From an uncultured virus (IMG/VR IMGVR_UViG_3300032213_001453) (Duplodnaviria; Heunggongvirae; Uroviricota; Caudoviricetes), in IMG/VR virus record IMGVR_UViG_3300032213_001453: 64,000 nucleotides of DNA. One strand, 5' to 3'. Each line of letters begins with the position of its first letter. Position 1 is the stretch's first letter. A program made the translations under genes and the position numbers. Below are positions 421-12,880 of this stretch, one piece after another. The notes under the pieces were generated by a model. That model was not told where the DNA came from. It worked only from the letters and a program-made list of their open reading frames with translations, and searched no databases.

Positions 421-447
421 TAAATAAATTTTATTTGTTTTGATTAG

Positions 448-477
448 AGGGAGGCCTTCGGGCCTCCCTTTTTTTTT
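448..477 (+). terminator. intrinsic terminator
   Basis: AGGGAGGCC-TTCG-GGCCTCCCT stem followed by a T run. Confidence 0.9.
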
Positions 478-841
478 CGCCTTATCCGGGCTTTTAAAAA
501 TGGGCCTTATAAGAGCTATTTTAGAATTTCAAGTTTTTTATCTTTCACTCTATTACATCACTTCTATAGTGAATGTATATAATCAAGTTATTATCTCTCA
601 TTCTAACCTAGAGATCTGAGATGAACATCTTTTCTACCCCGTCAAAACTCATTTTTTCTCAGATAGGTATGAAAGATACCTGATAGAACTTTCAGACGCT
701 TAGAAACGAAAATAGAGGCCTCTCAGGCTAACCTAGAGATCATTTCCGTCCCGTCTTTTTAGATATGATCTTATAAGACTACTTATAGAAATAAATAAAA
801 TAGATTTTAGAAAAAAACTTTCTTTTTTTATTTCCGATTAC

Positions 842-958
842 AATTATGTACTCAATTATGTACCTAAATAGGTACCTAATTATCCGGGCGCAATTCTCCG
901 CGAAAAGACAGCGGAGCGCCCGTCCTAATTATGTAGCTGATTATGTACATAATTAGGG
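842..958. repeat. AT-rich 12-bp tandem repeats flanking a GC-rich hairpin (886-921)
   Basis: AATTATGTACTC/AATTATGTACCT/AAATAGGTACCT units; hairpin GGGCG..CTCCGC..GCGGAG..CGCCC. Confidence 0.8.
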
Positions 959-1006
959 GGCTAAAAATAAATGGCCACCTAATTAGGCAGCCATTTATCT
1001 TGCTAC

Positions 1007-1561
1007 TTATGTCAGAGATTTTATGGCATCATTTGCCCAAGAGAATAAACGATCACGAAGACTTTCCATTTCTTCATAATACTTATTCTCCCCATCTTCA
1101 TCATCGAAACTCATAAGAGGATAATTACTGTCGAAGATTTCTTCCATCATAATTTCCTCCCCGTCTTTCGTGACTCTAATGCCGCAGAAACACATACCCG
1201 GTTCATCCCAAAAATGAATAAAAGTAAGTTCGGGGAACATCTCAGAAATCTTATCGTAACCAGTAAGAGGAGGATTCCACGGAGAATCAAAGGAATAAGT
1301 AATCTGCCCAGTATCTCCAAAGTTCTCTCCAGACATTTCGATGGAAGATTCTGCCCACTTTGTGCCCCAGTTATTTATGCACCATTCATACCCGCCAGAA
1401 TTGTAGCCCTCTAAAGACTCAAATTCTTTAGGCATAGGAATAAGAGTCCGAAGAAACGAATCAGTCTTTTCGGGATCATTAGCCGCTGCTCTACCCGCAA
1501 GAACTCTCAGAGTAATTGTAGGACCGTCAATGACGACTTTATTGTAGCACCAATTAGGCAT
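1007..1561 (-). CDS. DUF1281/YubB ferredoxin-like domain protein
   Basis: Motifs MPNWCxN, YEWCINNWGTKW, FDSPWNPP, DEPGMCFCG; GGAGG RBS before ATG at 1561. Confidence 0.7.
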   Translation of the reverse strand: MPNWCYNKVVIDGPTITLRVLAGRAAANDPEKTDSFLRTLIPMPKEFESLEGYNSGGYEWCINNWGTKWAESSIEMSGENFGDTGQITYSFDSPWNPPLTGYDKISEMFPELTFIHFWDEPGMCFCGIRVTKDGEEIMMEEIFDSNYPLMSFDDEDGENKYYEEMESLRDRLFSWANDAIKSLT

Positions 1562-1697
1562 TTTTATCCTCCAGTTTATCTGAACGCATAACGGCAGAAC
1601 TAACCCATTCTCCATCTGGCATTTCTAAGAAACATTGAGCGCAAACTCCACCCTCAACTTCTTCTGTATCACCACAGATTTCACAATTATCAGGCAT
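1554..1697 (-). CDS. small Cys-rich protein (47 aa, two CxxC)
   Basis: MPDNCEIC...CAQC; overlaps both neighbours in operon fashion. Confidence 0.5.
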   Translation of the reverse strand: MPDNCEICGDTEEVEGGVCAQCFLEMPDGEWVSSAVMRSDKLEDKNA

Positions 1698-1963
1698 TAT
1701 GACTCTCCCATACAAATTAGGCAGAAGTATTTCACTTCTTTATCTACAGAATGATCTAGAACATCTGAATAGCAAATCATGTGATCTTTCTCGAAATACT
1801 CTCCACAAGCATCACAAGCAACTTCACCTAGAAGAATAGTGGGATCACAATCCTCACAACTACCGTTGATCCAATCCGGCCATTCTCCGGCATCAGTTTC
1901 TCGGCCACAAGTATCGCAACTTCTAACGTCGGCTTTTACCCAATCCATTGAGTCAGGCATCAT
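1697..1963 (-). CDS. Cys-rich putative Zn-binding protein
   Basis: Four CxxC motifs. Confidence 0.55.
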   Translation of the reverse strand: MMPDSMDWVKADVRSCDTCGRETDAGEWPDWINGSCEDCDPTILLGEVACDACGEYFEKDHMICYSDVLDHSVDKEVKYFCLICMGES

Positions 1964-2180
1964 AGTTCACTTTCTTGGGGGTAGGAATAGCGGGATTCTT
2001 CTCGCTCCAATGTTCCTCAAACATTTTGACAGTTTGAGCAACTTTTCTTTCAGCAGACTCTTTCTCCATAGAAATAAGTTCTAACTGTCGCCAAACTGGA
2101 ATAATAGAAAGCAAATGACGAAACTCTTGTTCCATCTTTGTCTTTTCACCATTCGTGTATTTACCGTATTCCCAAGACAT
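1953..2180 (-). CDS. hypothetical protein
   Basis: GGAGG RBS before ATG at 2180; operonic. Confidence 0.55.
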   Translation of the reverse strand: MSWEYGKYTNGEKTKMEQEFRHLLSIIPVWRQLELISMEKESAERKVAQTVKMFEEHWSEKNPAIPTPKKVNYDA

Positions 2181-2185
2181 GATAA

Positions 2186-2401
2186 CTAAGCCTCCAAGCA
2201 TTCTTTGTGAAAGTAGCGGATAAGAAAACGGGAAAGATGATCTTTCCAAACTTCTTTAGCAACAATCGGGTAATCAAACCTGAGATGAACTACGGAATCG
2301 AAACTACTAACAAAACCTGTGCGGGGAAAGAATTCGTCACATTTATCACAAATGTACAATTCGTCTAGGTTTGTTGATTCTGTGATCTCTACCTGAAACA
2401 T
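2186..2401 (-). CDS. hypothetical protein (CxxC ... HxxC)
   Basis: ORF coupled to the upstream gene; GGAGG RBS. Confidence 0.55.
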   Translation of the reverse strand: MFQVEITESTNLDELYICDKCDEFFPRTGFVSSFDSVVHLRFDYPIVAKEVWKDHLSRFLIRYFHKECLEA

Positions 2402-2610
2402 CAGATGTAACCTCCAAGTCCAATAGATTCCAATACATCAAACGGAACATCATTGTAATCATACAATGCCATAGCACAACAACATTCCACTTCCATTTCA
2501 TCCTCAAACCAATCTCGCCACGGAGCGTCAGCGATAGAGGCAGAACTAAGCCCCAATTTGGAGATGAGACAACCATCAACTTCTGCCATGAACTTCTGAA
2601 AATCAGTCAT
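2401..2610 (-). CDS. hypothetical acidic protein
   Basis: GAAAGG RBS before ATG at 2610. Confidence 0.55.
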   Translation of the reverse strand: MTDFQKFMAEVDGCLISKLGLSSASIADAPWRDWFEDEMEVECCCAMALYDYNDVPFDVLESIGLGGYI

Positions 2611-2794
2611 TCTCAATAACCTTTCCGGGATAAATTGCGGGCATGAATTGCTCTGGATTATTACGACGATACTCATCGTAATTTCTATTCTGAAAATTAG
2701 TCCATAACATTGTCACAAACATTACGGAAATAATAGCCAGAAAGATTGCTGAAGCCTTTGTGATTGTGTTCAGTTTGTTATCCATAAATGCCAA
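2603..2794 (-). CDS. small membrane protein
   Basis: One hydrophobic helix; first gene of the leftward operon. Confidence 0.45.
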   Translation of the reverse strand: MAFMDNKLNTITKASAIFLAIISVMFVTMLWTNFQNRNYDEYRRNNPEQFMPAIYPGKVIEND

Positions 2795-2950
2795 TTTAGC
2801 CGCTGTAACCTGTCTGTGTCAAAAGTTTCTATAGGAACTTCGGTTAGACCCGGGCTTCTAAAATGGGGGCTTATAAGACCCTTTTTAGAAACTAATGTTA
2901 GTTATTGGATTAGAAATCTGAAAGACCCCTTATAAACCTAAATAGGAATA

Positions 2951-3103
2951 GAATTATGCACTAAACTATCAACCTATTTATGTACCTAATTTTACGGGCA
3001 CAAGACTCCGCCAAAGAGCAGCGGAGTGCCCGCCATAATTATGTACCTAATTATGTTCCTAATTAGGTACGTATTTATGTAGCTATTTATGTACATAACT
3101 ATG
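2951..3103. repeat. AT-rich 12-bp tandem repeats flanking a GC-rich hairpin (2995-3032)
   Basis: 3037-3096 = AATTATGTACCT AATTATGTTCCT AATTAGGTACGT ATTTATGTAGCT ATTTATGTACAT. Confidence 0.85.
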
Positions 3104-3115
3104 GGGGCAATGATG

Positions 3116-3142
3116 AAGCCCCCGCCACAGGAGCGGGGGCTT
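3116..3142 (-). terminator. probable terminator hairpin
   Basis: AAGCCCCCGC...GCGGGGGCTT downstream of 3187..3462. Confidence 0.6.
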
Positions 3143-3186
3143 ATTTATGCGCCTAGTGAGGTACCTCTCTAGGTCTTAGGTTAGGC

Positions 3187-3462
3187 TCAAACCTTCGCAG
3201 CGCGAATGCGAACCTGCGGGACTCCCGCCGTGTCGTAATCGATACGGCAGTCATCGTTCCGCACGTGTCGCCAGTGCTTGCGAATGATCTGAGACACCGC
3301 CGAGCGTGAAGCCTTCGGGACATTCCCGAAGGTCTCGCGGAGGATGATCGCCTGACCCGCCTTCACCTTTTTCAGCGAAGCCGCTAGGTCGGGGTTGATC
3401 TCCACCTTGCGCCCGCGAGGGGAAACCACCACCTCGTTAGCGTCAATGAATTCATCAGCCAT
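3187..3462 (-). CDS. small basic protein, paralogue of 4017..4289
   Basis: MADEFI..EVVVSPRGRKVEI...IRKHWRHVR...RIDYD.AGVPQVR shared; GGAGGTG RBS. Confidence 0.8.
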   Translation of the reverse strand: MADEFIDANEVVVSPRGRKVEINPDLAASLKKVKAGQAIILRETFGNVPKASRSAVSQIIRKHWRHVRNDDCRIDYDTAGVPQVRIRAAKV

Positions 3463-3490
3463 TTATGTTCACCTCCCTTCCGTTGGTGTG

Positions 3491-3506
3491 TGTTTCACGT
3501 GAAACA
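3491..3506. promoter_or_regulatory. parS: parS site (perfect consensus)
   Basis: TGTTTCACGTGAAACA, the canonical chromosomal ParB-binding palindrome. Confidence 0.85.
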
Positions 3507-3558
3507 CCGCCCCGTTCGGGCCTGCCCCGTTCGGTATGCCTTCATTATCGACCCCGAA

Positions 3559-3620
3559 CATGAACGGAAGGTAAACACAACCTTGCTTTCACCTAAAGAA
3601 AAAGCAAAAGGTAAGTGAAC
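3559..3620 (-). promoter_or_regulatory. PHO-box-like 11-bp-phased repeats upstream of a -10 element
   Basis: CATGAAC 3559, GGTAAAC 3570, AGTGAAC 3614, all in 11-bp phase. Confidence 0.5.
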
Positions 3621-3643
3621 GTCAGAACTGCCGGAAACATCGT

Positions 3644-3862
3644 TTATGCGCCAAATTATTTAGGGATTTATAAGCCCATTTATAAACCTAATTAGCGAAA
3701 TAGAAATGTACTAAATTATGTACATAATTATGTACCTAAATTGCTGGGCGTTTATGTTCCGGTAGGGCTGGAACATAAACGCCCACCTAATTATGTACCT
3801 ATTTAGGTATCCAATTAGCTGTCTATTTATGTGGCTATTTGGGTGGCTATTTATGTGCCTAT
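3644..3862. repeat. AT-rich 12-bp tandem repeats flanking a perfect hairpin (3746-3784)
   Basis: Six units at 3789-3860; hairpin GGGCGTTTATGTTCC-N9-GGAACATAAACGCCC. Confidence 0.85.
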
Positions 3863-3887
3863 TCGCAAGTTTCGGGGGGTTATGTCA

Positions 3888-3903
3888 AGTGACGGATGTC
3901 ACA
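3888..3903. promoter_or_regulatory. CRP/GlxR-type box (one mismatch)
   Basis: AGTGA-CGGATG-TCACA upstream of 4017..4289. Confidence 0.5.
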
Positions 3904-4016
3904 CATAATCGGGAAAATAATCGTTGTTTGGGGTAGACATGAGCCTGAGGTTCCGGTAGTGTTATCTACATGGAGTTGAGCAAGTCGCTCGGCTCACGAA
4001 TCAAGGAGAAGGAAAC

Positions 4017-4289
4017 ATGGCAGACGAGTTCATTAGTGCGGAAGAAGTTGTTGTTTCTCCCCGAGGCCGTAAGGTTGAGATCATGCCGGACCTAGCGGCA
4101 ACTCTCAAGAAACTGAAGGAAGGCCAAGCGATCCGCCTTTCCGAAACTTTCGGTGAAGTGTCGAAGGCTCACCGTTCGTCGGTGTCGCAGGTGATCCGTA
4201 AGCATTGGCGTCACGTCCGTGACGACGAGCCACGCATCGACTACGATCAGGCAGGCGTGCCTCAGGTTCGGGTGCGAGCCACACGATAG
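4017..4289 (+). CDS. small basic protein, paralogue of 3187..3462
   Basis: High visible similarity to 3187..3462; AAGGAG RBS. Confidence 0.8.
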   Translation: MADEFISAEEVVVSPRGRKVEIMPDLAATLKKLKEGQAIRLSETFGEVSKAHRSSVSQVIRKHWRHVRDDEPRIDYDQAGVPQVRVRATR

Positions 4290-4322
4290 CCTTTCCGCCG
4301 AGGCTATCCGGCTCCCCGATAG

Positions 4323-4354
4323 AAAGGCCCCCGGTTCCGCCACCGGGGGCCTTT
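4323..4354. terminator. intrinsic terminator (bidirectional-looking)
   Basis: AAAGGCCCCCGGT-N6-ACCGGGGGCCTTT. Confidence 0.8.
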
Positions 4355-4401
4355 CGTTTACCGGGCTATTTATTTACATTCTTATAAGGCTAGTTGGGAA
4401 C

Positions 4402-4535
4402 CTAATTATGAAAATACACGCACACTCAATTAGGCACCTAATTATGTGCCTAATTTTGCGGGTGCAAAAGTGTGCGATGAAGCTGCACACGGGCACCCGC
4501 CCTAATTATGTACCTATTTGGGAACATAATTGGGG
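4402..4535. repeat. AT-rich 12-bp repeats flanking a GC-rich hairpin (4458-4500)
   Basis: AATTAGGCACCT AATTATGTGCCT ... AATTATGTACCT; GCGGGTGC..GTGTGC..GCACAC..GCACCCGC. Confidence 0.75.
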
Positions 4536-4573
4536 GGACAATTATGAAGCCCCTCCGAAGAGGGGCCGCATAA

Positions 4574-5074
4574 TTAGAAGCCTAATTCGGTGAGGCGTCC
4601 CCATGCCCCTTCCGGCATACTTATGTACCTATCTGTGTCCCACATCATTTCGTTGAGGAGTTGGATCTCTTCGTCGATTTCGTTCTGTCGGGAGATTTCC
4701 ATCTGCTGTTCGATCCGGCGATCCCATCCAATTTGTTCGTAGCGACGTTCGTCGCTGATGAGTCCGTCTCCCATGTCGGCAAGGATGTTGAGGAGACTGA
4801 AGGCACGCTCTTCCCATTTGCCCATTTCCTCACGTTCCTGAAAGTCGATCAGTCGCCCGTTGAGAACCTGAGCGCAGTAGTGAGACTTGGCAGCCTTGAT
4901 GTGGATAACTTCCAGCACGTTCCCGTCGTCGTACATGGCGAGGGATGTGATGGGGAGAATCTCGGCGCTGTAGAACACCTTGGTGAATGTCTTCATGATG
5001 TGGCGGGCGACGATTGAGAAGTTCTCTCGCCCGACGTTTCCGATGGTGCCACCGATGAGTTCGGTACCGTACAT
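4574..5074 (-). CDS. hypothetical protein (166 aa)
   Basis: GGAGG RBS before ATG at 5074; acidic C-terminus. Confidence 0.65.
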   Translation of the reverse strand: MYGTELIGGTIGNVGRENFSIVARHIMKTFTKVFYSAEILPITSLAMYDDGNVLEVIHIKAAKSHYCAQVLNGRLIDFQEREEMGKWEERAFSLLNILADMGDGLISDERRYEQIGWDRRIEQQMEISRQNEIDEEIQLLNEMMWDTDRYISMPEGAWGRLTELGF

Positions 5075-5168
5075 AATCAGCCTCCGTGGTTGTGGGGAGC
5101 CGTTCTCCCCAACAAGTAAGACGGTATCACGGATGGGCGGTGGGCGCACATCGAAACGGGCCATTCTA

Positions 5169-5186
5169 GGTGAACTTTAGGTGAAC
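5169..5186 (-). promoter_or_regulatory. PHO-box-like direct repeat
   Basis: Minus strand reads GTTCACC-TAAA-GTTCACC (11-bp period). Confidence 0.6.
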
Positions 5187-5393
5187 AAATCTGAGCCAGA
5201 AAACTGGCCCATCCGGGGAAAATTATGTGGCTCTTATAATCTTTTTTTTGGAACATAATTAGGAATACAATTATGAACATAAAGACTCAGATAGGTATGT
5301 GGATTGGATTATATGCTAAATTATGTACATAAATAGGAACCTAAACGGCGGACGAGCAAGCGTGCGATGGAGTGGGTGGCGAGCACCCGCAAA

Positions 5394-5431
5394 AAGTTAT
5401 CCACAGGCTCCGAAGAACCTGTGGATAACTT
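5394..5431 (-). terminator. terminator hairpin built from two inverted DnaA boxes
   Basis: AAGTTATCCACAGG-N10-CCTGTGGATAACTT with a minus-strand T run; TTATCCACA at 5397, TGTGGATAA at 5420. Confidence 0.75.
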
Positions 5432-5435
5432 CTGG

Positions 5436-5801
5436 TCAGTCTACGACGATTGCGATTTCGTCAGGCCCGAACACGCCAGTCTTGACGTAGTAGGTCACTA
5501 GCCAAGTCTTGAGAGCCATGCTCTGAGTTTGTTCGTTGGTGGTGGCTCGGCCAAGGTCCGATTCCGTGGCTCGGTAGCAGTCACCCTTGGCGGAGTGATC
5601 CCGACGACGTAGGGCCGGATTCTTGACGACAGCCGGAGCCAGTCGGGGGAGTTTGTGAATCTGGCCCGAAGCGATTGCGGCTTCGATGTCTGGCCGACGG
5701 ACTCGGGCCAGAGCCAGAGCGTGATCGACTGCGGCTAGTTGGGCCTTGGTTGGTTTCTTGGTCGGAGTGGCTACCGACTTGGTGTAGAGGCTGATTGCCA
5801 T
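5436..5801 (-). CDS. basic protein, member of a 3-paralogue family
   Basis: PT(K/R)KPTKA...(R/K)VRRP(D/E)xEA...RRRD(H/Y)...D.GRA...YYV..GV shared with 6335..6709 and 7237..7605; appears leaderless. Confidence 0.8.
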   Translation of the reverse strand: MAISLYTKSVATPTKKPTKAQLAAVDHALALARVRRPDIEAAIASGQIHKLPRLAPAVVKNPALRRRDHSAKGDCYRATESDLGRATTNEQTQSMALKTWLVTYYVKTGVFGPDEIAIVVD

Positions 5802-5822
5802 AGGTGCATTATTGCGAACCTA

Positions 5823-5884
5823 AGTGAACGAATGGTGTCGTGATGGTAAACGGAAGGTAATTTGTAGGTGAACATCAGGTGAAC
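5823..5884 (-). promoter_or_regulatory. PHO-box-like array of six 11-bp units
   Basis: AGTGAAC 5823, GGTGTCG 5834, GGTAAAC 5845, GGTAATT 5856, GGTGAAC 5867, GGTGAAC 5878. Confidence 0.7.
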
Positions 5885-6031
5885 AAACTCTCCTCGTAGA
5901 TTGGCTCCTGCGGGCCTCTGAGGGTGTCGGATGATGGGTAGGTGCGGGCGATTCTGCGGGCCGTCAGAGACGATTCTAGGGGCCTCTCACGGGGAATTCA
6001 CTTTCATGCATGATTATGCAGAGGGGCATTG

Positions 6032-6047
6032 TGTGACGTTTGTCACA
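6032..6047. promoter_or_regulatory. CRP/GlxR-type box
   Basis: TGTGA-CGTTTG-TCACA, perfect consensus, intergenic. Confidence 0.6.
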
Positions 6048-6334
6048 TCAGATTTTGATTGTGTACTAAATTAGGTACATAAATACGGCGAAGAAAGCCG
6101 GACGAGCAAGCGAGCGATGGAGTTACCGGGCTGTGCGCCCGTCCCGGGCCTTCAAAATGGGTCCTTTTAATCTTTTTTTCTGAGTATAATTTGAAACATA
6201 GATTGGGACATAAATTATGTTTTCCCTGCATAGAATACGAAAATGTACTAAATCTCGGTATATTCTATCCCCGTTGTTGCAGGGCGAGCAAGCGAGCGAG
6301 GGAGTCGGGGCGGAGCACCCTCGCTCGCTGCCTG

Positions 6335-6709
6335 TCAATCGTCGTCCACCACGATGGCCAACTCATCCTCACCGATGACGCCGGTAGCGACGTAGTACGT
6401 CGTGAGCCATGTCTTCGCTGCCATGCTCATCGTCTGAGGGTTGGTGCTCGCTCGCCCCATGTCGGCAGCGGTGAGCGTGTAGGCGTGAGCGTCGGTGCGG
6501 TAGTCACGTCGGCGGCGTCCGGCGTCCTTCACTTCGGCGGCGGTGAGCGTGGTGAGTTTGTGGAATCCACCGCGAGCGATGAATGCCTCAATGTCGGGGC
6601 GACGAACCCTAGCGAGCGCTAAAGCGTGCTCAGCGGCGGCGAGCGCTGCCTTCGTGGGTTTGCGGGTCGGGGTGGCACTGCTCTTGCGGTACATTCGGAC
6701 GGTGCTCAT
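6335..6709 (-). CDS. basic protein, member of the 3-paralogue family
   Basis: Paralogy to 5436..5801; GAAAGG RBS before ATG at 6709. Confidence 0.8.
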   Translation of the reverse strand: MSTVRMYRKSSATPTRKPTKAALAAAEHALALARVRRPDIEAFIARGGFHKLTTLTAAEVKDAGRRRRDYRTDAHAYTLTAADMGRASTNPQTMSMAAKTWLTTYYVATGVIGEDELAIVVDDD

Positions 6710-6818
6710 TTGGAGCCTTTCTGTATGGGTTTTTAGGAACATACTCAACTGCTGAGGGAAATCTAGTCGGTGCTACAAGGGCGAGCAAGCGAGCGAGGGA
6801 GTCGGGGCGGAGCACCCG

Positions 6819-7085
6819 CTAGGGACGTTCCAAACCAGCGTGAGCGACTGCTATGGCCCTCAGTACGTTCATACCGGGAAAGGCTAGGAACGTAACCTCG
6901 TTGATGATTTCGCCAGCACGCTCGTTCATCCGAATGATGGAGAAAGCGACGGCCCCACTTGGGAGCCACGCGAACGGATGAAGGATGATGTCGGGGGCGT
7001 CAGAAAACCCGTAGTTCTCACCTTGCCCTACCCACTCGGCGCACGTATCGAATTCAGAAATGGAATCGGTCAGGGAGTCAAACAT
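6819..7085 (-). CDS. hypothetical protein (88 aa)
   Basis: GAAAGG RBS before ATG at 7085; fills one repeat interval. Confidence 0.65.
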   Translation of the reverse strand: MFDSLTDSISEFDTCAEWVGQGENYGFSDAPDIILHPFAWLPSGAVAFSIIRMNERAGEIINEVTFLAFPGMNVLRAIAVAHAGLERP

Positions 7086-7188
7086 AGGAACAACCTTTCG
7101 GGATAGGTACTCAACTAGGGACGATACTAGAACGGAAGATGGAGGGCGAGCAAGCGAGCGAGGGAGTCGGGTGCGGAGCACCCGCAAA

Positions 7189-7227
7189 AAGTTATCCACA
7201 GGCCCGACTGCTGCCTGTGGATAACTT
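7189..7227 (-). terminator. terminator hairpin built from two inverted DnaA boxes
   Basis: AAGTTATCCACAGG...CCTGTGGATAACTT; boxes at 7192 and 7216. Confidence 0.75.
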
Positions 7228-7236
7228 CGGTTTCGA

Positions 7237-7605
7237 TCAATCGGGATCGACAACTACGGCGAACTCATCGGCAGCGAGGACACCGGCTTCGACATAGTAG
7301 TTCATGATCCAGATTCGGAGTGCCATAGAGACGGTCTGTTCCGATGCCGTGGCCCGTCCCTTGTCACCTTCGGTGACGATGTAGGCAGATCCCTTGCCGG
7401 TGTGATCACGACGGCGACGGCCTGAATCTCGAACCTCGGCGTCGGTGAGTTCGGGGAGAGAGTGGAAGGCACCGGATCGAAGGAACGCTTCCAGTTCGGG
7501 ACGGCGAACCTTCGACAGAACTAGAAGGTAGTCGGCGTATTCCAGTATGGCCTTCGTCGGCTTGCGGGTTGGGGAAATGCTGGCCTTGCGGTAGATCCGG
7601 ATCAT
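7237..7605 (-). CDS. basic protein, member of the 3-paralogue family
   Basis: Paralogy; GAAAGGGA RBS before ATG at 7605. Confidence 0.8.
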   Translation of the reverse strand: MIRIYRKASISPTRKPTKAILEYADYLLVLSKVRRPELEAFLRSGAFHSLPELTDAEVRDSGRRRRDHTGKGSAYIVTEGDKGRATASEQTVSMALRIWIMNYYVEAGVLAADEFAVVVDPD

Positions 7606-7626
7606 GTCGATCCCTTTCGGTTGGTG

Positions 7627-7642
7627 TGTTTCACGTGAAACA
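7627..7642. promoter_or_regulatory. parS: parS site (perfect consensus)
   Basis: TGTTTCACGTGAAACA. Confidence 0.85.
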
Positions 7643-7688
7643 CTCGGACACCGGCTTGCTTGCCGATAGGTACATCGTTGCAAACCCA

Positions 7689-7739
7689 AGTGAACGGAAG
7701 GTGAACTAGGAGCGAACTGAGGGGAAAGATTAGGTGAAT
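7689..7739 (-). promoter_or_regulatory. PHO-box-like array of 11-bp units
   Basis: AGTGAAC 7689, GGTGAAC 7700, AGCGAAC 7711, GGGAAAG 7722, GGTGAAT 7733. Confidence 0.65.
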
Positions 7740-7756
7740 CATTAGGTGCATCTAGG

Positions 7757-7772
7757 TGTGACAAGCGTCACA
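7757..7772. promoter_or_regulatory. CRP/GlxR-type box
   Basis: TGTGA-CAAGCG-TCACA, perfect consensus. Confidence 0.6.
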
Positions 7773-7784
7773 CGAAATGAGGGG

Positions 7785-7932
7785 TTTTCCACAGGGGTAC
7801 CTTATGGGCTGCGGCGCAAGGGGGGTCCGATCGATCCTGAGGCGTTCTAGGGGGGTCTGAGAGGATCGGCTTTCTGGGGGTTTTCCACAGTTTCCACAGC
7901 CCTGTGGATAACTTTGCTGGGGCTGTGGATAA
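7785..7932. promoter_or_regulatory. DnaA-box cluster
   Basis: TTTTCCACA 7785 and 7881, GTTTCCACA 7890, TGTGGATAA 7903 and 7924, then a short AT-rich patch. Confidence 0.75.
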
Positions 7933-8054
7933 CTTTCTTATAAAGTATAAGATTATTCGCATACTCAATCTGGGACGGCTGCGCCACCTTCCAAGAAGGG
8001 CGAGCAAGCGAGCGAGGGATTCGGGCTGTAGGCCCGCCTGACTAGCGAATAGGA

Positions 8055-8080
8055 AAGGCCCCGCAAGATTGCGGGGCCTT
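8055..8080. terminator. terminator hairpin
   Basis: AAGGCCCCGCAA-GA-TTGCGGGGCCTT. Confidence 0.7.
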
Positions 8081-8144
8081 GTGCGGGTGATTCTGTTGCC
8101 ACGCTCCCTAGCGCCGACTCTCAGTCAGTCAGAACGAACGCCGA

Positions 8145-8318
8145 TCAGTAATCAGCATCCCAGCGCTCTCCCGCATAATCGGGATCGAAAGCGTCAGGGG
8201 CTGAATCACCGGAGAGGCTGTACGCGCATGATGCGTCGTGACAGTCCCAGCAACGTCCGCCGTTCCACAACGTGGCAACGCTGTCGCCACACTCGGAACA
8301 CGTCTGCAGAGTATCCAT
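8145..8318 (-). CDS. small Zn-finger-like acidic protein (57 aa)
   Basis: CSEC...CWDC; GGAGGTG RBS. Confidence 0.65.
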   Translation of the reverse strand: MDTLQTCSECGDSVATLWNGGRCWDCHDASCAYSLSGDSAPDAFDPDYAGERWDADY

Positions 8319-8439
8319 TTTCACCTCCCTCCGGGCCTTGGTTGGCATCATTGTAAACACACGCTCAAGGGGAACACAAGTACCTACCCAAACAGCAGGG
8401 CGAGCAAGCGAGCGAGGGAGTCGGGCAGGAGCGCCCTTC

Positions 8440-8604
8440 TTAGCCGTCGAATTCCGGCCAGTAATCCTCTCCGTGGCCGTAGGGATCAGGCTCGGACAAT
8501 TCATCCTGATCTATCTGGCCAAGACAAACAGAGCACAAACCCTGAGCGAAGATTTCGCGGGAGCAGTAGAAACAGCAGTCGATTCCACCAGTACGTTCGT
8601 TCAT
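8440..8604 (-). CDS. small Zn-finger-like acidic protein (54 aa)
   Basis: MNERTGGIDCCFYC...CSVC; AAGGAG RBS; below the ORF-track cut-off. Confidence 0.6.
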   Translation of the reverse strand: MNERTGGIDCCFYCSREIFAQGLCSVCLGQIDQDELSEPDPYGHGEDYWPEFDG

Positions 8605-8707
8605 GAGGGTTCTCCTTTATCTAGGTACTAAAGACTGAGACTAATCTAGTCCCTATTGGCAGGGCGAGCAAGCGAGCGAGGAATTCGGCCCGGAGCGCCC
8701 TTTCGGC

Positions 8708-9022
8708 TCACACGGAATCGGCTAGAGTGTTGCGAGTGCCGGGGCGGTAGAGAGCAAGTTTCTTATAGTAGTTCCCGATAACGAACGAATTCCAAGACGG
8801 CGTGAAGAATACCGTGTGAGTCACCTTGTCTTCGCAGTAGGCCACCTCATCGAATTGGAGCGAGTCGTCGGCGTTAAGCGTAACGATCACGTCTCCGATG
8901 CGAGCGTCACAAGCGCGCGCTCCCCAAACCTTCCAATAGCCGGGTTCTCCTGCCTTAAGTTCTTGCCCTTCTTGCGCTGCGAGTCGTGCCGCTGCGAGTC
9001 CGTCAAGTTGATCTATAGCCAT
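8708..9022 (-). CDS. hypothetical protein (104 aa)
   Basis: GAAGGGG RBS before ATG at 9022; TTGACA-N16-TATACT promoter upstream. Confidence 0.65.
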   Translation of the reverse strand: MAIDQLDGLAAARLAAQEGQELKAGEPGYWKVWGARACDARIGDVIVTLNADDSLQFDEVAYCEDKVTHTVFFTPSWNSFVIGNYYKKLALYRPGTRNTLADSV

Positions 9023-9164
9023 TTCGTTCCCCTTCACCGTTTGGCTGACTATTTGCCAGCTCTGTTTGTAAGTATACATCAAACCTAGAGTGTGTCAAGA
9101 ACCTAATCCGCAGGGCGAGCAAGCGAGCGAGGGGCCGGGTCGGAGCGCCCTCGCTCGCCCCTTC

Positions 9165-9380
9165 TCACTCTCCCAGTCCGCAAGCGAGGCGGAATCGTTC
9201 GGGATCGAATCGGGGGTTCTGGGTGACGAGGAAGCAGGAGAGTGACTCCACTGCTCGCCGGAATCCCTCCTCCTCCATCTCGGCGTCTCCGTGGCCCCAG
9301 TCGCCGCGATCCTCAGTGCGGATCGCGTCAACTGAGACGGCGAGCATTCGGGCCAGTTCGTTGTAGTCCTTGCGTGTCAT
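9165..9380 (-). CDS. conserved small phage protein (MTRKDY...NPRFD..RF..AC type)
   Basis: Motif pattern typical of small phage proteins; GAGGG RBS; TATAAT promoter upstream. Confidence 0.65.
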   Translation of the reverse strand: MTRKDYNELARMLAVSVDAIRTEDRGDWGHGDAEMEEEGFRRAVESLSCFLVTQNPRFDPERFRLACGLGE

Positions 9381-9519
9381 GGTTCCCTCTCTTGGGGCCA
9401 GTGGGTCCGGCTCCGTGATCATTATAAGCACACACTAAATAGAGATGCAAGTACCTACCCAATTAGCAGGGCGAGCAAGCGAGCGAGGGGCGCTGGTCGG
9501 AGCGCCAGCGCCCCTCTTC

Positions 9520-9621
9520 TCATCTCCCTCGCTTGGGATCGGTGTACCACTGCCAGAGGGCCAGCAGTGGGAAGGAGAGCCAGAACATGGCAGCGATGAC
9601 ATCACCGAGGTAGACGCGCAT
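9520..9621 (-). CDS. 33-aa membrane peptide
   Basis: MRVYLGDVIAAMFWLSFPLLALWQW...; TGATG coupling to 9621..9710. Confidence 0.45.
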   Translation of the reverse strand: MRVYLGDVIAAMFWLSFPLLALWQWYTDPKRGR

Positions 9622-9710
9622 CAGAGGCTCACAATCTTTCGGGCGATGATGTAGCCGAGGAGTAATCCCGGGGGAGTTGCTAGGGCGAGAGTGATGAGTG
9701 CGTGAATCAT
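9621..9710 (-). CDS. 29-aa membrane peptide
   Basis: MIHALITLALATPPGLLLGYIIARKIVSL; GAAAGGG RBS. Confidence 0.45.
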   Translation of the reverse strand: MIHALITLALATPPGLLLGYIIARKIVSL

Positions 9711-9848
9711 GATTCCCTTTCTGCTAGCGGGCCGTTCCCGCTATGCGGACAGTCTGACATACATTCCAGCGTGACACAAGTACCTACCTAATCGGTAGGG
9801 CGAGCAAGCGAGCGAGGGGGCTGGCCGGAGCGCCAGCCCCCTTCTCTC

Positions 9849-10124
9849 TCACTTCTGGGGGCGTGAGACGTGGACTGTGGGGAGTTCGCATCGTGAGACT
9901 GTCACGACGCCCAGAGGGCCTTCCCAGAGGGTGTGGTTTCCGTTGGTGTGGAGGCAGCGGTAGCCACCCTCTGCCAGCGAGCGATTCCATTCGATGGCAT
10001 TGTTCACGTGGGCAGGGTTGGTGTGTTCGGGGCGATCATTGATGAAGAACTCAACAACGTCGGGGTGAACGGCGTGGGCGATGTTTCCGGTGTATGGGTT
10101 GGCGATGGAGCGGTGGGTGTTCAT
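9849..10124 (-). CDS. hypothetical protein (91 aa)
   Basis: GGAGG RBS before ATG at 10124; TTGACG promoter upstream. Confidence 0.65.
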   Translation of the reverse strand: MNTHRSIANPYTGNIAHAVHPDVVEFFINDRPEHTNPAHVNNAIEWNRSLAEGGYRCLHTNGNHTLWEGPLGVVTVSRCELPTVHVSRPQK

Positions 10125-10435
10125 GGTGTGGGCCTCCGTAGGTCCGTTGTGGTTGGTATGGACATCATTGCAGATCTGACTAGGTACGTCAATACGTGCT
10201 GGCACGTATTCCATTCTGGGGGATTCTCCCCCCATTGCTGCAGGGCGAGCAAGCGAGCGATGGTGCTGGCCTGAGCGCCAGTTGTGTGTGGGTGGTTTAG
10301 GTTTTCCCAGATCGTGTAAAAACGGGGCAGCATTGTTTTGGTGTGTATTAAAGTTTTTGTGTTTTTTGGGTTGAAAAAACCCCAGTTGTTGGCTGGGGTT
10401 TTGGGGGGGTGTTGTGTTGTTTTGTGGTGTTGTGG

Positions 10436-10870
10436 TTATGTGGTTGTCCATGCGTTGAGTAGTGCTTTGGTTACCATTTCGGTGGAGAGTTCGATGTGTT
10501 CGTAGTTGCGTTCTACGAGTGCGTTTGTTTGTGTTTCGTTGTATTGGCCGTGTGAGCTTGAGTGTACGATTTCTGTGTCTACGAGTGATTGTTCGGGGGA
10601 GAGGATGACGTGGACGAGTTCGTGTACGAGTATTTTTTCGATGGTTTCGTTGTTGTGTCGGACTGCTGATGGGAGGTACCATTTGATGTTTGCGTCCATG
10701 TATTGCCATTGGGCGTGTGTGGTTGCGGTGACTTTGTGTTCTTCAAGGTCGTAGTATGTGTCTAGGTATGTGTGTTGGATGTCCCAGTGGTTGAGGCCGA
10801 GGCGGGTTTGCCAGATTGGGGCGAGTTTGTCGATGAGTTTTGTGATTCTTGTGTTGGGGTTTTCTGGCAT
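10436..10870 (-). CDS. HEXXH Zn-metallopeptidase-like protein
   Basis: LVHELVHV motif; W..RLGL..W N-terminus; TGCTATAAT promoter. Confidence 0.65.
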   Translation of the reverse strand: MPENPNTRITKLIDKLAPIWQTRLGLNHWDIQHTYLDTYYDLEEHKVTATTHAQWQYMDANIKWYLPSAVRHNNETIEKILVHELVHVILSPEQSLVDTEIVHSSSHGQYNETQTNALVERNYEHIELSTEMVTKALLNAWTTT

Positions 10871-10926
10871 GGTGTTGTCTTTCTGTGTGTGTTTATTATA
10901 GCATAGTTGTTGTGGGGGCTTTCCGG

Positions 10927-10940
10927 CGAACATTTGTTCG
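10927..10940. promoter_or_regulatory. LexA (Gram-positive/actinobacterial SOS) box
   Basis: CGAAC-ATTT-GTTCG over the -35 region of the 10436..10870 promoter. Confidence 0.6.
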
Positions 10941-10948
10941 TTTTGTTG

Positions 10949-11533: not shown

Positions 11534-11768
11534 TTTCTTTGCTTTCTTGCTTCCATTTGATCATATTTGTGAAGTTTACTGCCCACCACATGAAGCTCAT
11601 GGCAATAAATCCGGGTTTTCCGTAGATTACGCTGTAAATAAACCAAGGAATTGAGTGGGTTAGCACGATGAGCCAGCCCCACCAGTACTTTTTGCCGATG
11701 TACCACATTCCTGTAATACCGAAAAGCTCAAAGGCAAACAGTACCCACGTCCACGATGCTTCACTCAT
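11505..11768 (-). CDS. PnuC-like small membrane protein
   Basis: Three TM helices, Trp-rich, KK.WWGW motif. Confidence 0.5.
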   Translation of the reverse strand: MSEASWTWVLFAFELFGITGMWYIGKKYWWGWLIVLTHSIPWFIYSVIYGKPGFIAMSFMWWAVNFTNMIKWKQESKENAISDASLH

Positions 11769-12409: not shown

Positions 12410-12435
12410 ATGAACTCCTTATTGTTTCATTCATA

Positions 12436-12675: not shown

Positions 12676-12871
12676 TTATCTTAGAGAATAAAAGGTCCGC
12701 ATCCGCTGGCGGTACTTTCACAATCTTACAATTAGACTGTGAAGTTGCCACCGGCAGATGCGGTCCTTTAGATCCACATGACCAACATTGCTGAGGCTTT
12801 CCATCATCCAAGGCCCAACTACAATCACATACACACAAAAACCCTTTGACGTATGGTTGGAAAGCACTCAT
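12641..12871 (-). CDS. Zn-ribbon protein
   Basis: CxC...CxxC. Confidence 0.5.
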   Translation of the reverse strand: MSAFQPYVKGFLCVCDCSWALDDGKPQQCWSCGSKGPHLPVATSQSNCKIVKVPPADADLLFSKINELQEMERNEA

Positions 12872-12880
12872 GTTAGTATT

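What the first reader, a model, noticed from the sequence alone, without database searches (positions are those of the whole stretch)
3480..10945. Island that mimics the host origin region and global-regulator sites
Seen: about 7.5 kb contains two perfect parS, seven perfect DnaA boxes, four PHO-like arrays, three CRP-type boxes and one SOS box. I did not see comparable sites in the other ~55 kb. Around 7237..7605 the minus-strand order is DnaA cluster, CRP box, PHO array, -10, parS, gene, DnaA-box terminator, and 5436..5801 repeats most of this. Established: parS plus DnaA boxes mark bacterial oriC regions. Inference: the phage recruits or titrates host DnaA and ParB/SMC and ties a few orphan early genes to host phosphate, carbon and DNA-damage status. 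This could be a host-state sensing or carrier-state system built mostly from cis sites.
Basis: partly seen in the sequence, partly recalled or inferred. Interest (0 to 1): 0.87.

Follow-up and report, generated by a model that had tools for sequence, protein, structure and literature searches.

The report
Host-factor sites in phage early module
A stretch of an uncultured phage genome, possibly the repeated end that enters the cell first, holds small early genes whose control regions are built from perfect copies of binding sites for the bacterium's own replication, chromosome-segregation and nutrient-sensing proteins; this is partly known from phage T5 and still unexplained.

Summary
All listed motifs are at the stated places and nowhere else in the 64 kb. 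In 1000 dinucleotide shuffles of 3000-11000, none reached the observed counts for parS, DnaA boxes, CRP-type palindromes or phased GTTCAC repeats. The single SOS box is marginal, 12 of 1000.

It is not a host or plasmid chimera, because contigs from two samples bridge both composition borders.

I read it as the GC-richer part of a block of about 9.7 kb (about 430-10,100). That block has about twice the depth of its flank, so it may be a long direct terminal repeat. This is unproven.

The block is an early-gene cassette array on the minus strand. It holds 13 small orphan genes between 3187 and 10124, plus one paralog on the plus strand. Twelve copies of a conserved repeat punctuate it, and there are 12-bp-phased AT-rich arrays.

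Four of the seven DnaA boxes are the arms of two copies of one terminator hairpin.

Closest known is the T5 first-step-transfer repeat, which carries DnaA boxes. I also found perfect parS in the terminal repeats of vibriophage phi 3 and Arthrobacter phage Racecar.

I found no partition, replication or lysogeny genes in the window. Binding by host proteins is inferred, not shown.

The parts
430..10280 (.). Block with about twice the read depth of its right flank. Candidate long direct terminal repeat, or a module shared between strains. It holds the early-gene cassette array.
   Evidence: X1 records on 418-10113 have depth 15.7-19.0, against 8.57-8.83 on 10084-16000. X2 has 140-178 on 2048-10149, against 64.9 from 10242. 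The left edge follows the stop codon (420) and terminator of the last plus-strand ORF. The edges are approximate.
3491..3506 (.). parS-1, a perfect 16-bp palindrome in the leader of gene 3187-3462, 28 nt upstream of its ATG.
   Evidence: 20 nt are identical to the second copy (D16).
7627..7642 (.). parS-2, perfect, in the leader of gene 7237-7605, 21 nt upstream of its ATG.
   Evidence: A 7-bp RNA stem is predicted.
5394..5432 (-). Intrinsic terminator of gene 5436-5801. Its two arms are DnaA boxes (5397+, 5420-), and UUUUUG follows.
   Evidence: -33.2 kcal/mol, z -8.0, reached by 0 of 200 shuffles.
7189..7228 (-). Second copy of the DnaA-box terminator, after gene 7237-7605. The arms are the same (7192+, 7216-) but the loop differs.
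   Evidence: -26.5 kcal/mol, z -5.2. D11: the flank is 94% identical.
7785..7932 (.). DnaA-box cluster. Two perfect boxes (7903-, 7924-), two TTTTCCACA (7785+, 7881+) and one GTTTCCACA between them, next to a 35-nt AT-rich stretch.
4900..4908 (-). Perfect DnaA box inside the coding sequence of gene 4574-5074, with the same AAG flank as the other six.
3888..3903 (.). CRP/FNR-type palindrome, 15 of 16 (AGTGAC-N4-GTCACA). It lies in the spacer of a plus-strand promoter-like site in front of gene 4017-4289.
   Evidence: ATGTCA-16-CATAAT at 3882-3909.
6032..6047 (.). Perfect TGTGAC-N4-GTCACA, upstream of gene 5436-5801.
7757..7772 (.). Perfect TGTGAC-N4-GTCACA, upstream of gene 7237-7605. The half-sites match the other copies but the spacer differs.
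5819..5884 (-). Six direct repeat units phased at 11 nt (GTTCACC, GTTCACC, ATTACC, GTTTACC, CGACACC, GTTCACT). The array ends about 10 nt before an AATAAT -10-like hexamer. The ATG follows 6 nt after that hexamer, so the mRNA may be leaderless.
   Evidence: Phasing and -10 were read by eye.
7679..7745 (-). Six phased GTTCACC-like units upstream of gene 7237-7605. The region is homologous to the array at 5819-5884.
5169..5186 (-). Two perfect GTTCACC units 11 nt apart, upstream of gene 4574-5074.
   Evidence: D15: 88% identical to 5862-5887.
3559..3576 (-). Weaker pair, GTTTACCTTCC then GTTCATG, upstream of gene 3187-3462.
5340..10285 (-). Twelve copies of a conserved intergenic repeat, about 40 nt. 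The minus-strand core is TCGCNCGCTTGCTC, with first bases at 5367, 6117, 6299, 6796, 7161, 8015, 8415, 8679, 9130, 9486, 9815 and 10260. Copies lie between cassettes.
   Evidence: (D3-D5). Contigs of every sample break at these copies.
841..6090 (.). Six AT-rich arrays of a 12-bp-phased unit, TAATTATGTACC. Approximate spans: 841-990, 2945-3160, 3653-3867, 4367-4630, 5220-5345, 6056-6090.
   Evidence: (D1, D2, D6).
3187..3462 (-). 91-aa orphan protein with an invariant SPRGRK motif. Paralog of 4017-4289.
   Evidence: I1 (263-nt arms, 71%); 39 homologs..
4017..4289 (+). 90-aa paralog, transcribed divergently across the 554-nt AT-rich spacer.
   Evidence: pLDDT 82.4.
4574..5074 (-). 166-aa orphan gene. 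The start was chosen at the ATG that follows GGAGG.
5436..5801 (-). 121-aa orphan, member 1 of a three-paralog family.
6335..6709 (-). 124-aa paralog, member 2.
6819..7085 (-). 88-aa orphan gene.
7237..7605 (-). 122-aa paralog, member 3. The fold is predicted with confidence and has no match among solved or viral predicted structures.
   Evidence: pLDDT 94.0, pTM 0.87.
8145..10124 (-). Seven short cassettes: 8145-8318 (57 aa, Cys-rich), 8440-8604 (54 aa, Cys-rich), 8708-9022 (104 aa), 9165-9380 (71 aa), 9621-9710 and 9520-9621 (29 and 33 aa, hydrophobic), 9849-10124 (91 aa).
   Evidence: GC3 is 0.56-0.75, against 0.40-0.45 in flanking genes.
10927..10940 (.). Single SOS-type box, CGAACATTTGTTCG, 26 nt upstream of a TATAAT in front of gene 10436-10870. 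It lies outside the double-depth block.
   Evidence: 12 of 1000 shuffles.

Best explanation
The finding covers the GC-richer two thirds of a block of about 9.7 kb. The block is the phage's early, host-polymerase-read gene module, and it may be its long direct terminal repeat, the DNA that is present twice per genome.

The module is a cassette array. It holds 13 small orphan genes on the minus strand between 3187 and 10124, plus one paralog on the plus strand. Each cassette has its own promoter-like region and hairpin or terminator. A conserved repeat present in 12 copies separates the cassettes.

Four genes (3187-3462, 4574-5074, 5436-5801, 7237-7605) have long control regions assembled from sequences identical to consensus sites of proteins that the host already contains at the moment of entry.

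Proposed working, all of it inferred:
- 11-nt-phased GTTCACC repeats next to the -10 recruit an OmpR/PhoB-family response regulator of the PhoP type, which acts as activator.
- The TGTGAC-N4-GTCACA palindromes next to -10-like hexamers act as operators for a CRP/FNR-type dimer.
- parS lies between the start of transcription and the ribosome site. There it loads ParB, which damps or times the gene and coats the first DNA inside the cell.
- DnaA boxes in the terminator stems, and in the cluster downstream of a distal promoter, let DnaA act as a roadblock and form a DnaA complex on the repeat, as proposed for the injection-stop region of T5.

The net effect would be that a subset of early genes is gated by host state, and that the entering DNA is occupied by host origin-type proteins.

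Shown: the sites, their positions, the cassette anatomy, the double depth and the contiguity with the flanks. Inferred: which proteins bind, and every consequence of binding.
For: - Site statistics.
- Footprint-like conservation. Half-sites and heptamers are kept while spacers and loops differ between paralogous control regions.
- The DnaA-box hairpins are strong terminators.
- Cassette anatomy and the 12 repeats.
- Orphan gene content. None of the 16 island ORFs scanned matched Pfam. One of the 16 had a weak PHROG hit of unknown function.
- GC3 is 0.56-0.75 in the island genes against 0.40-0.45 beside them.
- All 7 phage tRNAs read A-ending codons. This fits early genes that are tuned to a GC-richer host before the phage tRNAs are made.
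- The block has about twice the depth of its flank in two samples.
- Relatives at 51% capsid identity are Streptomyces phages. Their BE1 cluster has terminal repeats of about 11 kb (PMC5764925, abstract seen).
- Precedent: the left terminal repeats of T5-like phages carry about 8 DnaA boxes in inverted repeats within a large untranslated, repeat-rich region (Davison preprint 10.1101/866236; abstract and passages read).
- Parallels found here. Vibriophage phi 3 has a perfect parS in the A1 leader inside its annotated repeat, plus TTATCCACA at 7267 and 7317. Arthrobacter phage Racecar has a perfect parS 155 bp from the inner end of its 20,468-bp repeat. Gordonia phage Hail2Pitt and Bacillus phage PBC2 have parS between small genes near a genome end.
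Against: - No binding data exist, the host is unknown, and no RNA run holds the region.
- The generic promoter scan was not enriched: 7 sites against 5.5 +/- 2.2 in shuffles. Most promoter calls were made by eye.
- All seven DnaA boxes share a 12-mer. They may therefore descend from one duplicated element, or serve a protein with a longer site.
- Depth also fits two co-occurring strains that share the block. In X1, 11.2 + 8.6 is close to 19. In X2, 105 + 65 is close to 170. Unitig breaks at both edges fit that reading better than a repeat.
- In X5 and X6 island-like DNA has more depth than the right flank.
- The nearest named relative checked, Faust, has only a 772-bp repeat and no parS.
- There are no A1, A2 or dmp homologs.
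- Only 64 kb of the genome was visible, so phage-encoded regulators cannot be excluded.
Confidence: 0.5

Rival explanations
1. The sites are operators for the phage's own regulators. These could include a phage ParB-like protein encoded outside the window. The likeness to host consensus sites would then reflect shared DNA-binding folds, or capture of the host protein's gene, and not recruitment of host proteins.
For: - Racecar encodes a 'ParB-like nuclease domain' protein inside the same terminal repeat that holds its parS.
- Only 64 kb of an estimated roughly 100 kb is visible.
- All DnaA boxes share a 12-mer, which is longer than the DnaA site.
- The divergent 90-aa pair with an invariant SPRGRK motif has weak winged-helix-like structure matches: best Z 5.1, and RepE at Z 4.8.
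Against: - Five different site types each match a different well-known host consensus exactly. The 16-of-16 parS match in particular is unlikely for an unrelated operator.
- No regulator family was found among the ORFs scanned.
- The early genes must be read before any phage protein exists.
Confidence: 0.2
2. The motifs work mainly as nucleic-acid structures (terminator stems, leader hairpins) or as duplicated filler, so their likeness to protein sites has no functional consequence.
For: - Four of the seven DnaA boxes are terminator arms.
- parS folds as a 7-bp leader hairpin.
- In Hail2Pitt a parS forms the tip of a longer hairpin followed by TTT.
- The copies are duplicates of each other.
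Against: - A stem can have any sequence, yet the stems here are exact DnaA and ParB consensus sites.
- The same parS recurs in unrelated phages.
- The cluster at 7785-7932, the phased heptamers and the palindromes with free spacers are not stem-loops.
Confidence: 0.12
3. One reading: the block is a replication origin plus centromere, which lets the phage persist as a plasmid-like carrier state using host DnaA and ParAB.
For: - A DnaA-box cluster lies next to an AT-rich stretch.
- There are iteron-like 12-bp arrays.
- There are two parS sites.
- The cumulative GC skew turns near 3 kb.
- The 90-aa protein has a weak resemblance to the iteron-binding RepE (Z 4.8, within the noise range).
Against: - No ParA, ParB, initiator, integrase or repressor was found in 64 kb.
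- The named relatives at 51% capsid identity are Streptomyces phages, and the BE1 announcement (abstract) mentions no lysogeny functions. That these phages are lytic is recalled, not taken from a call.
- Four of the boxes are terminators.
- In T5 the equivalent boxes are judged unlikely to serve replication.
- The skew is confounded by gene direction and by the composition shift.
Confidence: 0.08
4. The island is an assembly chimera with host or plasmid DNA.
For: There is a GC jump from about 40% to 50-60%. Assemblies break inside the island.
Against: - Independent unitigs from two samples bridge both composition borders.
- The breaks coincide with the 12 repeat copies.
- The AT-rich arrays span the left border.
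- There was no match to bacterial genomes beyond 6 chance singletons.
Confidence: 0.02

Closest known systems
Left terminal repeat, or first-step-transfer (pre-early) region, of phage T5 and other Demerecviridae, including its injection-stop region with DnaA boxes (Davison 2020 preprint 10.1101/866236; abstract and passages read)
   Same: - A block of roughly 8-10 kb at a genome end.
- Small genes read towards the end, as seen in the annotation of phi 3.
- Large untranslated stretches full of repeats, inverted repeats and palindromes.
- Consensus DnaA boxes placed inside inverted repeats, described there as reminiscent of oriC.
   Different: - The terminal repeat is not proven here.
- There are no A1, A2 or dmp homologs.
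- The phage is of the Streptomyces-phage lineage, not Demerecviridae.
- Here the boxes form terminator stems.
- parS, phased response-regulator repeats, CRP-type palindromes and a 12-copy cassette repeat are added.
Bacterial chromosomal origin region (oriC DnaA-box clusters with origin-proximal parS)
   Same: The same two site types in perfect consensus form, clustered within a few kb.
   Different: - No dnaA or dnaN genes.
- No DnaA-trio pattern was seen.
- The sites sit in promoters, leaders and terminators of phage genes.
- There are only two parS sites.
parS in the terminal or early regions of other phages, found here: Vibrio phage phi 3, Arthrobacter phage Racecar, Gordonia phage Hail2Pitt, Bacillus phage PBC2
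   Same: A perfect or near-perfect chromosomal-type parS lies in short gaps between small unnamed genes near a genome end. In phi 3 and Racecar it lies inside the terminal repeat. In phi 3 it lies in a gene leader, as it does here.
   Different: These phages are unrelated. The five were picked from 111 hits and are not a survey. Racecar also encodes a ParB-like protein. Only phi 3 also has DnaA boxes.
Host-takeover module in the terminal redundancy of Bacillus phage SPO1 (recalled, not read here)
   Same: Many small early genes in a long terminal repeat, each with its own host-type promoter and terminator.
   Different: No sequence relation. Host-factor sites of this kind are not something I recall for SPO1.
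Promoter-early stem-loop (PeSL) mobile regulatory cassettes of T4-type phages (recalled, not read here)
   Same: A repeated promoter-plus-hairpin unit flanks small orphan genes in a plastic region. Cassette presence differs between strains: X2 has depth 30 over 8545-9078 against 141-175 beside it, and a joint 8702 to 9039.
   Different: The repeat sequence is different. No mini-circle or recombination evidence was obtained here.
Dispersed centromere sites inside promoters of the linear plasmid-prophage N15 (recalled, not read here)
   Same: Centromere-type palindromes placed in control regions, where the partition protein also affects transcription.
   Different: N15 encodes its own SopAB and is a plasmid prophage. 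Here no partition genes are seen, and the site is the chromosomal consensus.

Membership tests
T5-type first-step-transfer terminal repeat | Long direct terminal repeat (several kb) | tested here: inconclusive
   Depth is about twice the flank on about 430-10,100 in X1 and X2. The figures also fit two strains that share the block. Contigs cannot show termini.
T5-type first-step-transfer terminal repeat | Small early genes read towards the genome end | tested here: met
   All 13 genes between 3187 and 10124 except 4017-4289 are on the minus strand. The same orientation is annotated in phi 3.
T5-type first-step-transfer terminal repeat | Large untranslated regions with repeats, inverted repeats and palindromes | tested here: met
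   Gaps of 554, 533 and 539 nt. 25 direct-repeat families and 50 inverted pairs.
T5-type first-step-transfer terminal repeat | Consensus DnaA boxes inside inverted repeats | tested here: met
T5-type first-step-transfer terminal repeat | A1, A2 and dmp genes | tested here: not met
   None of the 16 island ORFs matched a named PHROG family.
T5-type first-step-transfer terminal repeat | Two-step DNA injection | not testable with these tools
   Needs an isolated phage.
oriC-type replication origin | Cluster of DnaA boxes | tested here: met
   Five boxes in 7785-7932.
oriC-type replication origin | Adjacent unwinding element with DnaA-trios | tested here: inconclusive
   An AT-rich stretch of about 35 nt lies at 7936-7970. 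I saw no trio repeat by eye, and no dedicated test was run.
oriC-type replication origin | Flanking dnaA or dnaN, or an initiator gene | tested here: not met
ParABS partition system of plasmids and plasmid prophages | parS centromere | tested here: met
   Two perfect sites.
ParABS partition system of plasmids and plasmid prophages | parA and parB genes | tested here: not met
   None among the 78 ORFs scanned against PHROGs or the 43 scanned against Pfam in the 64-kb window. The rest of the genome was not seen.
PhoP-type PHO-box promoter (Streptomyces consensus GTTCACC in 11-nt units; consensus recalled) | Two or more direct repeat units phased at 11 nt | tested here: met
   Perfect pairs at 5169/5180 and 5867/5878. 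Arrays of six units at 5819-5884 and 7679-7745.
PhoP-type PHO-box promoter (Streptomyces consensus GTTCACC in 11-nt units; consensus recalled) | Array placed at the -35 position of a mapped promoter, and bound by PhoP | not testable with these tools
   No transcription start data. Other OmpR-family regulators, for example MtrA or GlnR (recalled), use similar repeats.
CRP/FNR-type site | TGTGA-N6-TCACA palindrome | tested here: met
   Two perfect copies and one 15-of-16 copy. Half-sites are kept while spacers differ.
LexA SOS box (Gram-positive form CGAAC-N4-GTTCG; consensus recalled) | Perfect box overlapping a promoter | tested here: inconclusive
   One perfect box, reached in 12 of 1000 shuffles. 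It ends 26 nt upstream of a TATAAT, so it lies upstream of the usual operator position.
PeSL-type regulatory cassettes | Repeated promoter-plus-hairpin unit between small ORFs, with cassette flux at the repeats | tested here: inconclusive
   12 repeat copies. 5 of the 12 fold with z of -2.9 or lower. The consensus fold has no compensatory pair. One cassette is absent in the main X2 strain. The joint 6323 to 8042 has only 28 nt on one side and is unreliable.

The most novel reading that the evidence does not exclude
Unrelated phages with long terminal repeats or terminal early regions place the host's own origin-type sites (parS, DnaA boxes) on the first DNA to enter. The examples seen here are a T5-like vibriophage, Arthrobacter, Gordonia and Bacillus phages, and this Streptomyces-phage relative. 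Pre-existing ParB and DnaA would then capture, anchor or pause that DNA and time the pre-early genes. In this phage the idea is extended by reading out response-regulator and CRP-type signals as well. That would make origin mimicry a general, host-matched entry strategy and not a T5 curiosity.
Probability: 0.25. Interest if true: 0.85.

Novelty: new variant of a known kind. Interest (0 to 1): 0.62.

Why it matters
DnaA boxes in the T5 terminal repeat have been known since the 1980s without a proven role.

This block shows the same idea in a distant phage lineage. It is combined with a perfect centromere site, phased response-regulator repeats and CRP-type operators. The parS part recurs in several cultured phages with harmless hosts.

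That turns a long-standing puzzle into something testable: why does first-entering phage DNA look like a chromosome origin? Existing phage-host pairs could be used for the test.

The block also offers a compact set of natural promoters that may read host phosphate, carbon and cell-cycle state. One of its orphan protein families has a confidently predicted fold with no match among known structures.

The papers I could search do not describe chromosomal parS in the terminal repeats of lytic phages (searches, limited to open PMC and bioRxiv). This scan noted one such case before, on other DNA (e1-6011051).

Tried and rejected
Searches for relatives of the island DNA, all without result:
- Megablast of 3000-11500 against 50,697 phage records: no match.
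- 20-mer of the repeat: 0 in IMG/VR, 6 single chance hits in GTDB genomes and 9 single hits in metagenome contigs. None of these is related to the window by blastn.
- Protein-guided locus searches with the paralog family: 164 and 234 pattern hits, none confirmed.
- The nearest held virus record, G001, covers only window 10607 onward.
- The window's own assembly is not held.
- Site conservation in close relatives could therefore not be read base by base. Read laying listed only part of the differences.

RNA and structure-level checks:
- No RNA holder is listed for the region.
- Rfam: 0 matches at E of 0.1 or lower on 1-12000.
- RNAalifold on the 12 repeat copies: 6 invariant pairs and 0 compensatory. 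I do not call the repeat a structured RNA.
- Generic promoter and terminator scan: 7 against 5.5 and 16 against 9.9, not clearly enriched. It missed the DnaA hairpins because their loops are longer than 8 nt.

Protein-level checks:
- ESM Atlas gave nothing usable for either family.
- 90-aa family: Foldseek had nothing at E of 0.001 or lower. The VIA best was Z 5.1, within noise.
- 122-aa family: Pfam and PHROGs matched 0 of 42 members. Foldseek PDB and BFVD had nothing at E of 0.001 or lower. The VIA best was Z 3.2.

Other points:
- Faust (Streptomyces phage) has no parS at up to 2 mismatches and a 772-bp repeat, so the trait is not shared with that relative.
- The joint 6323 to 8042 in X5 and X6 has only 28 nt on one side, so I rejected it as evidence for a deletion.
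- Literature searches for parS in lytic phage repeats found only unrelated uses.

Full report
**What the window is.** The 64-kb window is a siphophage.
- Its capsid protein is 51% identical to those of roughly 130-kb Streptomyces phages. 127 of the 229 matching records are Streptomyces phages.
- From about 11 kb on, the gene order matches Streptomyces phage Faust. That order is minus-strand small genes, then thymidylate synthase, endolysin, glycosyltransferases, ribonucleotide reductase, portal, protease and capsid.
- The window averages about 40% G+C, but 3001-10000 has 48.5-59.7%.
- Runs holding the DNA are labelled metagenome, or aquatic, freshwater or lake metagenomes.
- All seven tRNA genes read A-ending codons. 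From this I infer that the host is GC-richer than the phage.

**Checking the observation.**
- Counts against 1000 dinucleotide-preserving shuffles of 3000-11000: parS 2 vs 0.000; TTATCCACA 7 vs 0.045; TGTGA-N6-TCACA 2 vs 0.005; GTTCAC-N5-GTTCAC 3 vs 0.002. No shuffle reached any of these counts.
- The single CGAAC-N4-GTTCG box was reached in 12 of 1000 shuffles, so it is marginal.
- Of the 37 boxes within one mismatch of TTATCCACA in the window, 10 lie between 3962 and 7932. The other 27 are one-mismatch forms scattered over the rest.
- The sites are not independent events. The two parS lie in a duplicated leader (20 nt identical, with further similarity beside it; D16 and D20).
- Four DnaA boxes are the arms of two copies of one hairpin whose flank is 94% identical (D11).
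- All seven boxes share AAGTTATCCACA.

**Anatomy on the minus strand.**
- Thirteen small genes run leftward between 3187 and 10124, and one paralog (4017-4289) faces the other way.
- Between the cassettes lie 12 copies of a conserved repeat of about 40 nt, with core TCGCNCGCTTGCTC.
- In 5 of the 12 copies the repeat folds with neighbouring bases into a hairpin at z of -2.9 or lower. The consensus fold has no compensatory pair, so I treat it as a conserved DNA or boundary element and not as a proven RNA structure.
- Downstream of several copies I read -35-like and -10-like hexamers by eye. Examples are TTGACA-16-TATACT, the one strong hit of the scan, and TTGCAT-17-TATAAT. The generic scan as a whole was not enriched.
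- Six AT-rich arrays of a 12-bp-phased unit, TAATTATGTACC, lie between 841 and 6090. They cross the left composition border.

**The four complex control regions.** The genes 3187-3462, 4574-5074, 5436-5801 and 7237-7605 have long control regions.
- In front of 7237-7605 the order is a distal promoter-like TTGAGTAT, five DnaA boxes, a TGTGAC-N4-GTCACA palindrome, six GTTCACC-like units phased at 11 nt, a -10-like element, parS, a ribosome site and the gene. After the gene comes a DnaA-box hairpin followed by UUUUUG.
- The 5436-5801 region repeats this order without the box cluster and without parS. Its ATG follows the -10-like AATAAT by 6 nt, so the mRNA may be leaderless.
- Aligning the paralogous regions shows the promoter core and the heptamers kept, while palindrome spacers and hairpin loops differ. 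That pattern is the mark of protein-binding sites.
- The two DnaA-box hairpins are strong terminators: -33.2 kcal/mol (z -8.0) and -26.5 kcal/mol (z -5.2).

**Gene content.**
- None of the 16 island ORFs scanned matched Pfam. One had a weak PHROG hit of unknown function.
- The 121-124-aa family is present three times. It has only three other near relatives in the 90% cluster database and 49 representative clusters at E of 0.001 or lower. Its predicted fold is confident (pLDDT 94.0, pTM 0.87) but matches nothing. Foldseek against PDB and BFVD found nothing at E of 0.001 or lower, and the best VIA score was Z 3.2.
- The 90-aa pair has 39 homologs and an invariant SPRGRK motif. Its structure matches are only weak and winged-helix-like.
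- GC3 of the island genes is 0.56-0.75, against 0.40-0.45 in flanking genes.
- Together with the tRNA set, I read the composition shift as early genes tuned to the host's codon pool. Acquisition from GC-richer phages is the alternative.

**Is it a chimera, and is it a terminal repeat?**
- Unitigs from the probable source sample bridge both composition borders: X1 record 2 covers 418-6308 with 0 differences, and record 7 covers 10084-14428.
- A second sample does the same: X2 record 10 covers 2048-6310 at about 96% identity.
- Inside the island, contigs break exactly at the repeat copies.
- Depth in X1 is 15.7-19.0 on 418-10113, against 8.57-8.83 on 10084-16000.
- Depth in X2 is 140-178 on 2048-10149, against 64.9 from 10242.
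- This fits a collapsed direct terminal repeat of about 9.7 kb. Its left edge follows the last plus-strand ORF and its terminator.
- BE1-cluster Streptomyces phages have repeats of about 11 kb (PMC5764925, abstract).
- The figures also fit two strains sharing the block: 11.2 + 8.6 in X1, and 105 + 65 in X2. Unitig breaks at the edges favour that reading.
- In X5 and X6 island-like DNA at 90-95% identity has depth 2-25, while 11215-14952 has 0-2.
- Faust has only a 772-bp repeat.
- I put the terminal-repeat reading at about 55-60%.
- One cassette, 8708-9022, is missing from the main X2 strain. Depth there is 30 against 141-175 beside it, and there is a joint from 8702 to 9039.

**Comparison with what is known.**
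- The Davison preprint (10.1101/866236; abstract and passages read) reports that the left terminal repeat of 25 T5-like phages has a large untranslated, repeat-rich region. That region holds about eight DnaA boxes set in inverted repeats, 'reminiscent of oriC'. A role in stopping DNA injection is proposed there but untested, and a replication role is judged unlikely.
- A blastn of the 33-nt parS leader against 50,697 phage records hit 111 records: Arthrobacter 27, Gordonia 25, Bacillus 9 and others. I examined four of them.
- Vibrio phage phi 3 is T5-like. It has a perfect parS about 38 nt upstream of the A1 start, inside its annotated repeat (1-7769). It also has TTATCCACA at 7267 and 7317.
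- Arthrobacter phage Racecar has a perfect parS 155 bp from the inner end of a 20,468-bp repeat. That repeat also encodes a ParB-like protein.
- Gordonia phage Hail2Pitt has two perfect parS between small genes 2.6-3.1 kb from its right end. One forms the tip of a longer hairpin.
- Bacillus phage PBC2 has a 15-of-16 parS 45 nt upstream of a small gene 8 kb from its left end.
- These four were chosen from the hit list and are not a survey.
- My three literature searches found no paper on chromosomal-type parS in the repeats of lytic phages.

**Mechanism.** I commit to the reading given under Best explanation.
- The block is a first-expressed module whose control regions use host proteins already present in the cell.
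- Response-regulator repeats act as activator sites.
- The CRP-type palindromes and parS act as operators.
- DnaA boxes act as roadblocks or terminator helpers, and as a DnaA complex on the entering DNA in the manner proposed for T5.
- That DnaA bound to its box can stop RNA polymerase is recalled from older E. coli work and was not read here.
- Only the sequence facts are shown. Every binding step is inferred.
- The carrier-state, replication and partition reading is not supported by gene content.

**Verdict.** It belongs with the T5-type repeat-borne host-site regions, as a new variant in another phage lineage. Function is open and testable.

Noticed in passing
window 10280-11000; gene 10436-10870 (-): A 144-aa protein with an HELVH (HExxH) motif. 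Its third codon positions are 93% A or C (A 41%, C 52%, G 6%, T 1%), which makes the plus strand strikingly G/T-rich (GC skew 0.41, AT skew -0.45). The only SOS-type box lies upstream of it. It has no Pfam or PHROG match.
   Followed up: partly
window 5436-5801, 6335-6709, 7237-7605 (-): Three paralogs of a family of about 122 aa. The AlphaFold model is very confident (pLDDT 94.0, pTM 0.87) but matches nothing in PDB (Foldseek none; VIA best Z 3.2) or in BFVD. It may be a new fold.
   Followed up: partly
window 3187-3462 (-) and 4017-4289 (+): Divergent pair of 90-aa paralogs, 71% identical at the DNA level, around a 554-nt spacer full of 12-bp-phased AT-rich repeats. The family has 39 metagenomic homologs and an invariant SPRGRK motif. 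Structure matches are only weak and winged-helix-like.
   Followed up: partly
window 841-990, 2945-3160, 3653-3867, 4367-4630, 5220-5345, 6056-6090: Arrays of a 12-bp unit, TAATTATGTACC, that alternates GTAC and TAATTA half-palindromes and is therefore symmetric on both strands. The binding partner is unknown. The arrays extend beyond the GC-rich part.
   Followed up: partly
window 16093-27708: Seven tRNA genes with anticodons tac, tga, tgt, tat, ttt, taa and tct, all reading A-ending codons. They are interspersed with glycosyltransferase and methyltransferase genes.
   Followed up: no
window 18962-29572: A block of at least five glycosyltransferase-like genes and one methyltransferase-like gene, between the endolysin and the ribonucleotide reductase.
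   Followed up: no
window 39609-42626 (+): A 1005-aa protein that joins a head-maturation protease domain with stretches matching PHROG families. One of those families is named DNA-binding protein.
   Followed up: no
L157/L156 (Arthrobacter phage Racecar), L158 (Vibrio phage phi 3), L160 (Gordonia phage Hail2Pitt), L161 (Bacillus phage PBC2): Perfect or near-perfect chromosomal-type parS in terminal repeats or terminal small-gene regions of cultured phages. In Racecar it is 155 bp from the inner end of the repeat, beside a ParB-like gene. In phi 3 it is in the A1 leader. In Hail2Pitt it forms a hairpin tip.
   Followed up: partly
window 8545-9078 and 1069-1602: In sample X2 these two bins have depth 30, while neighbouring bins have 99-175. 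The genes 8708-9022 and 1007-1615 are therefore present in only a minor strain.
   Followed up: partly
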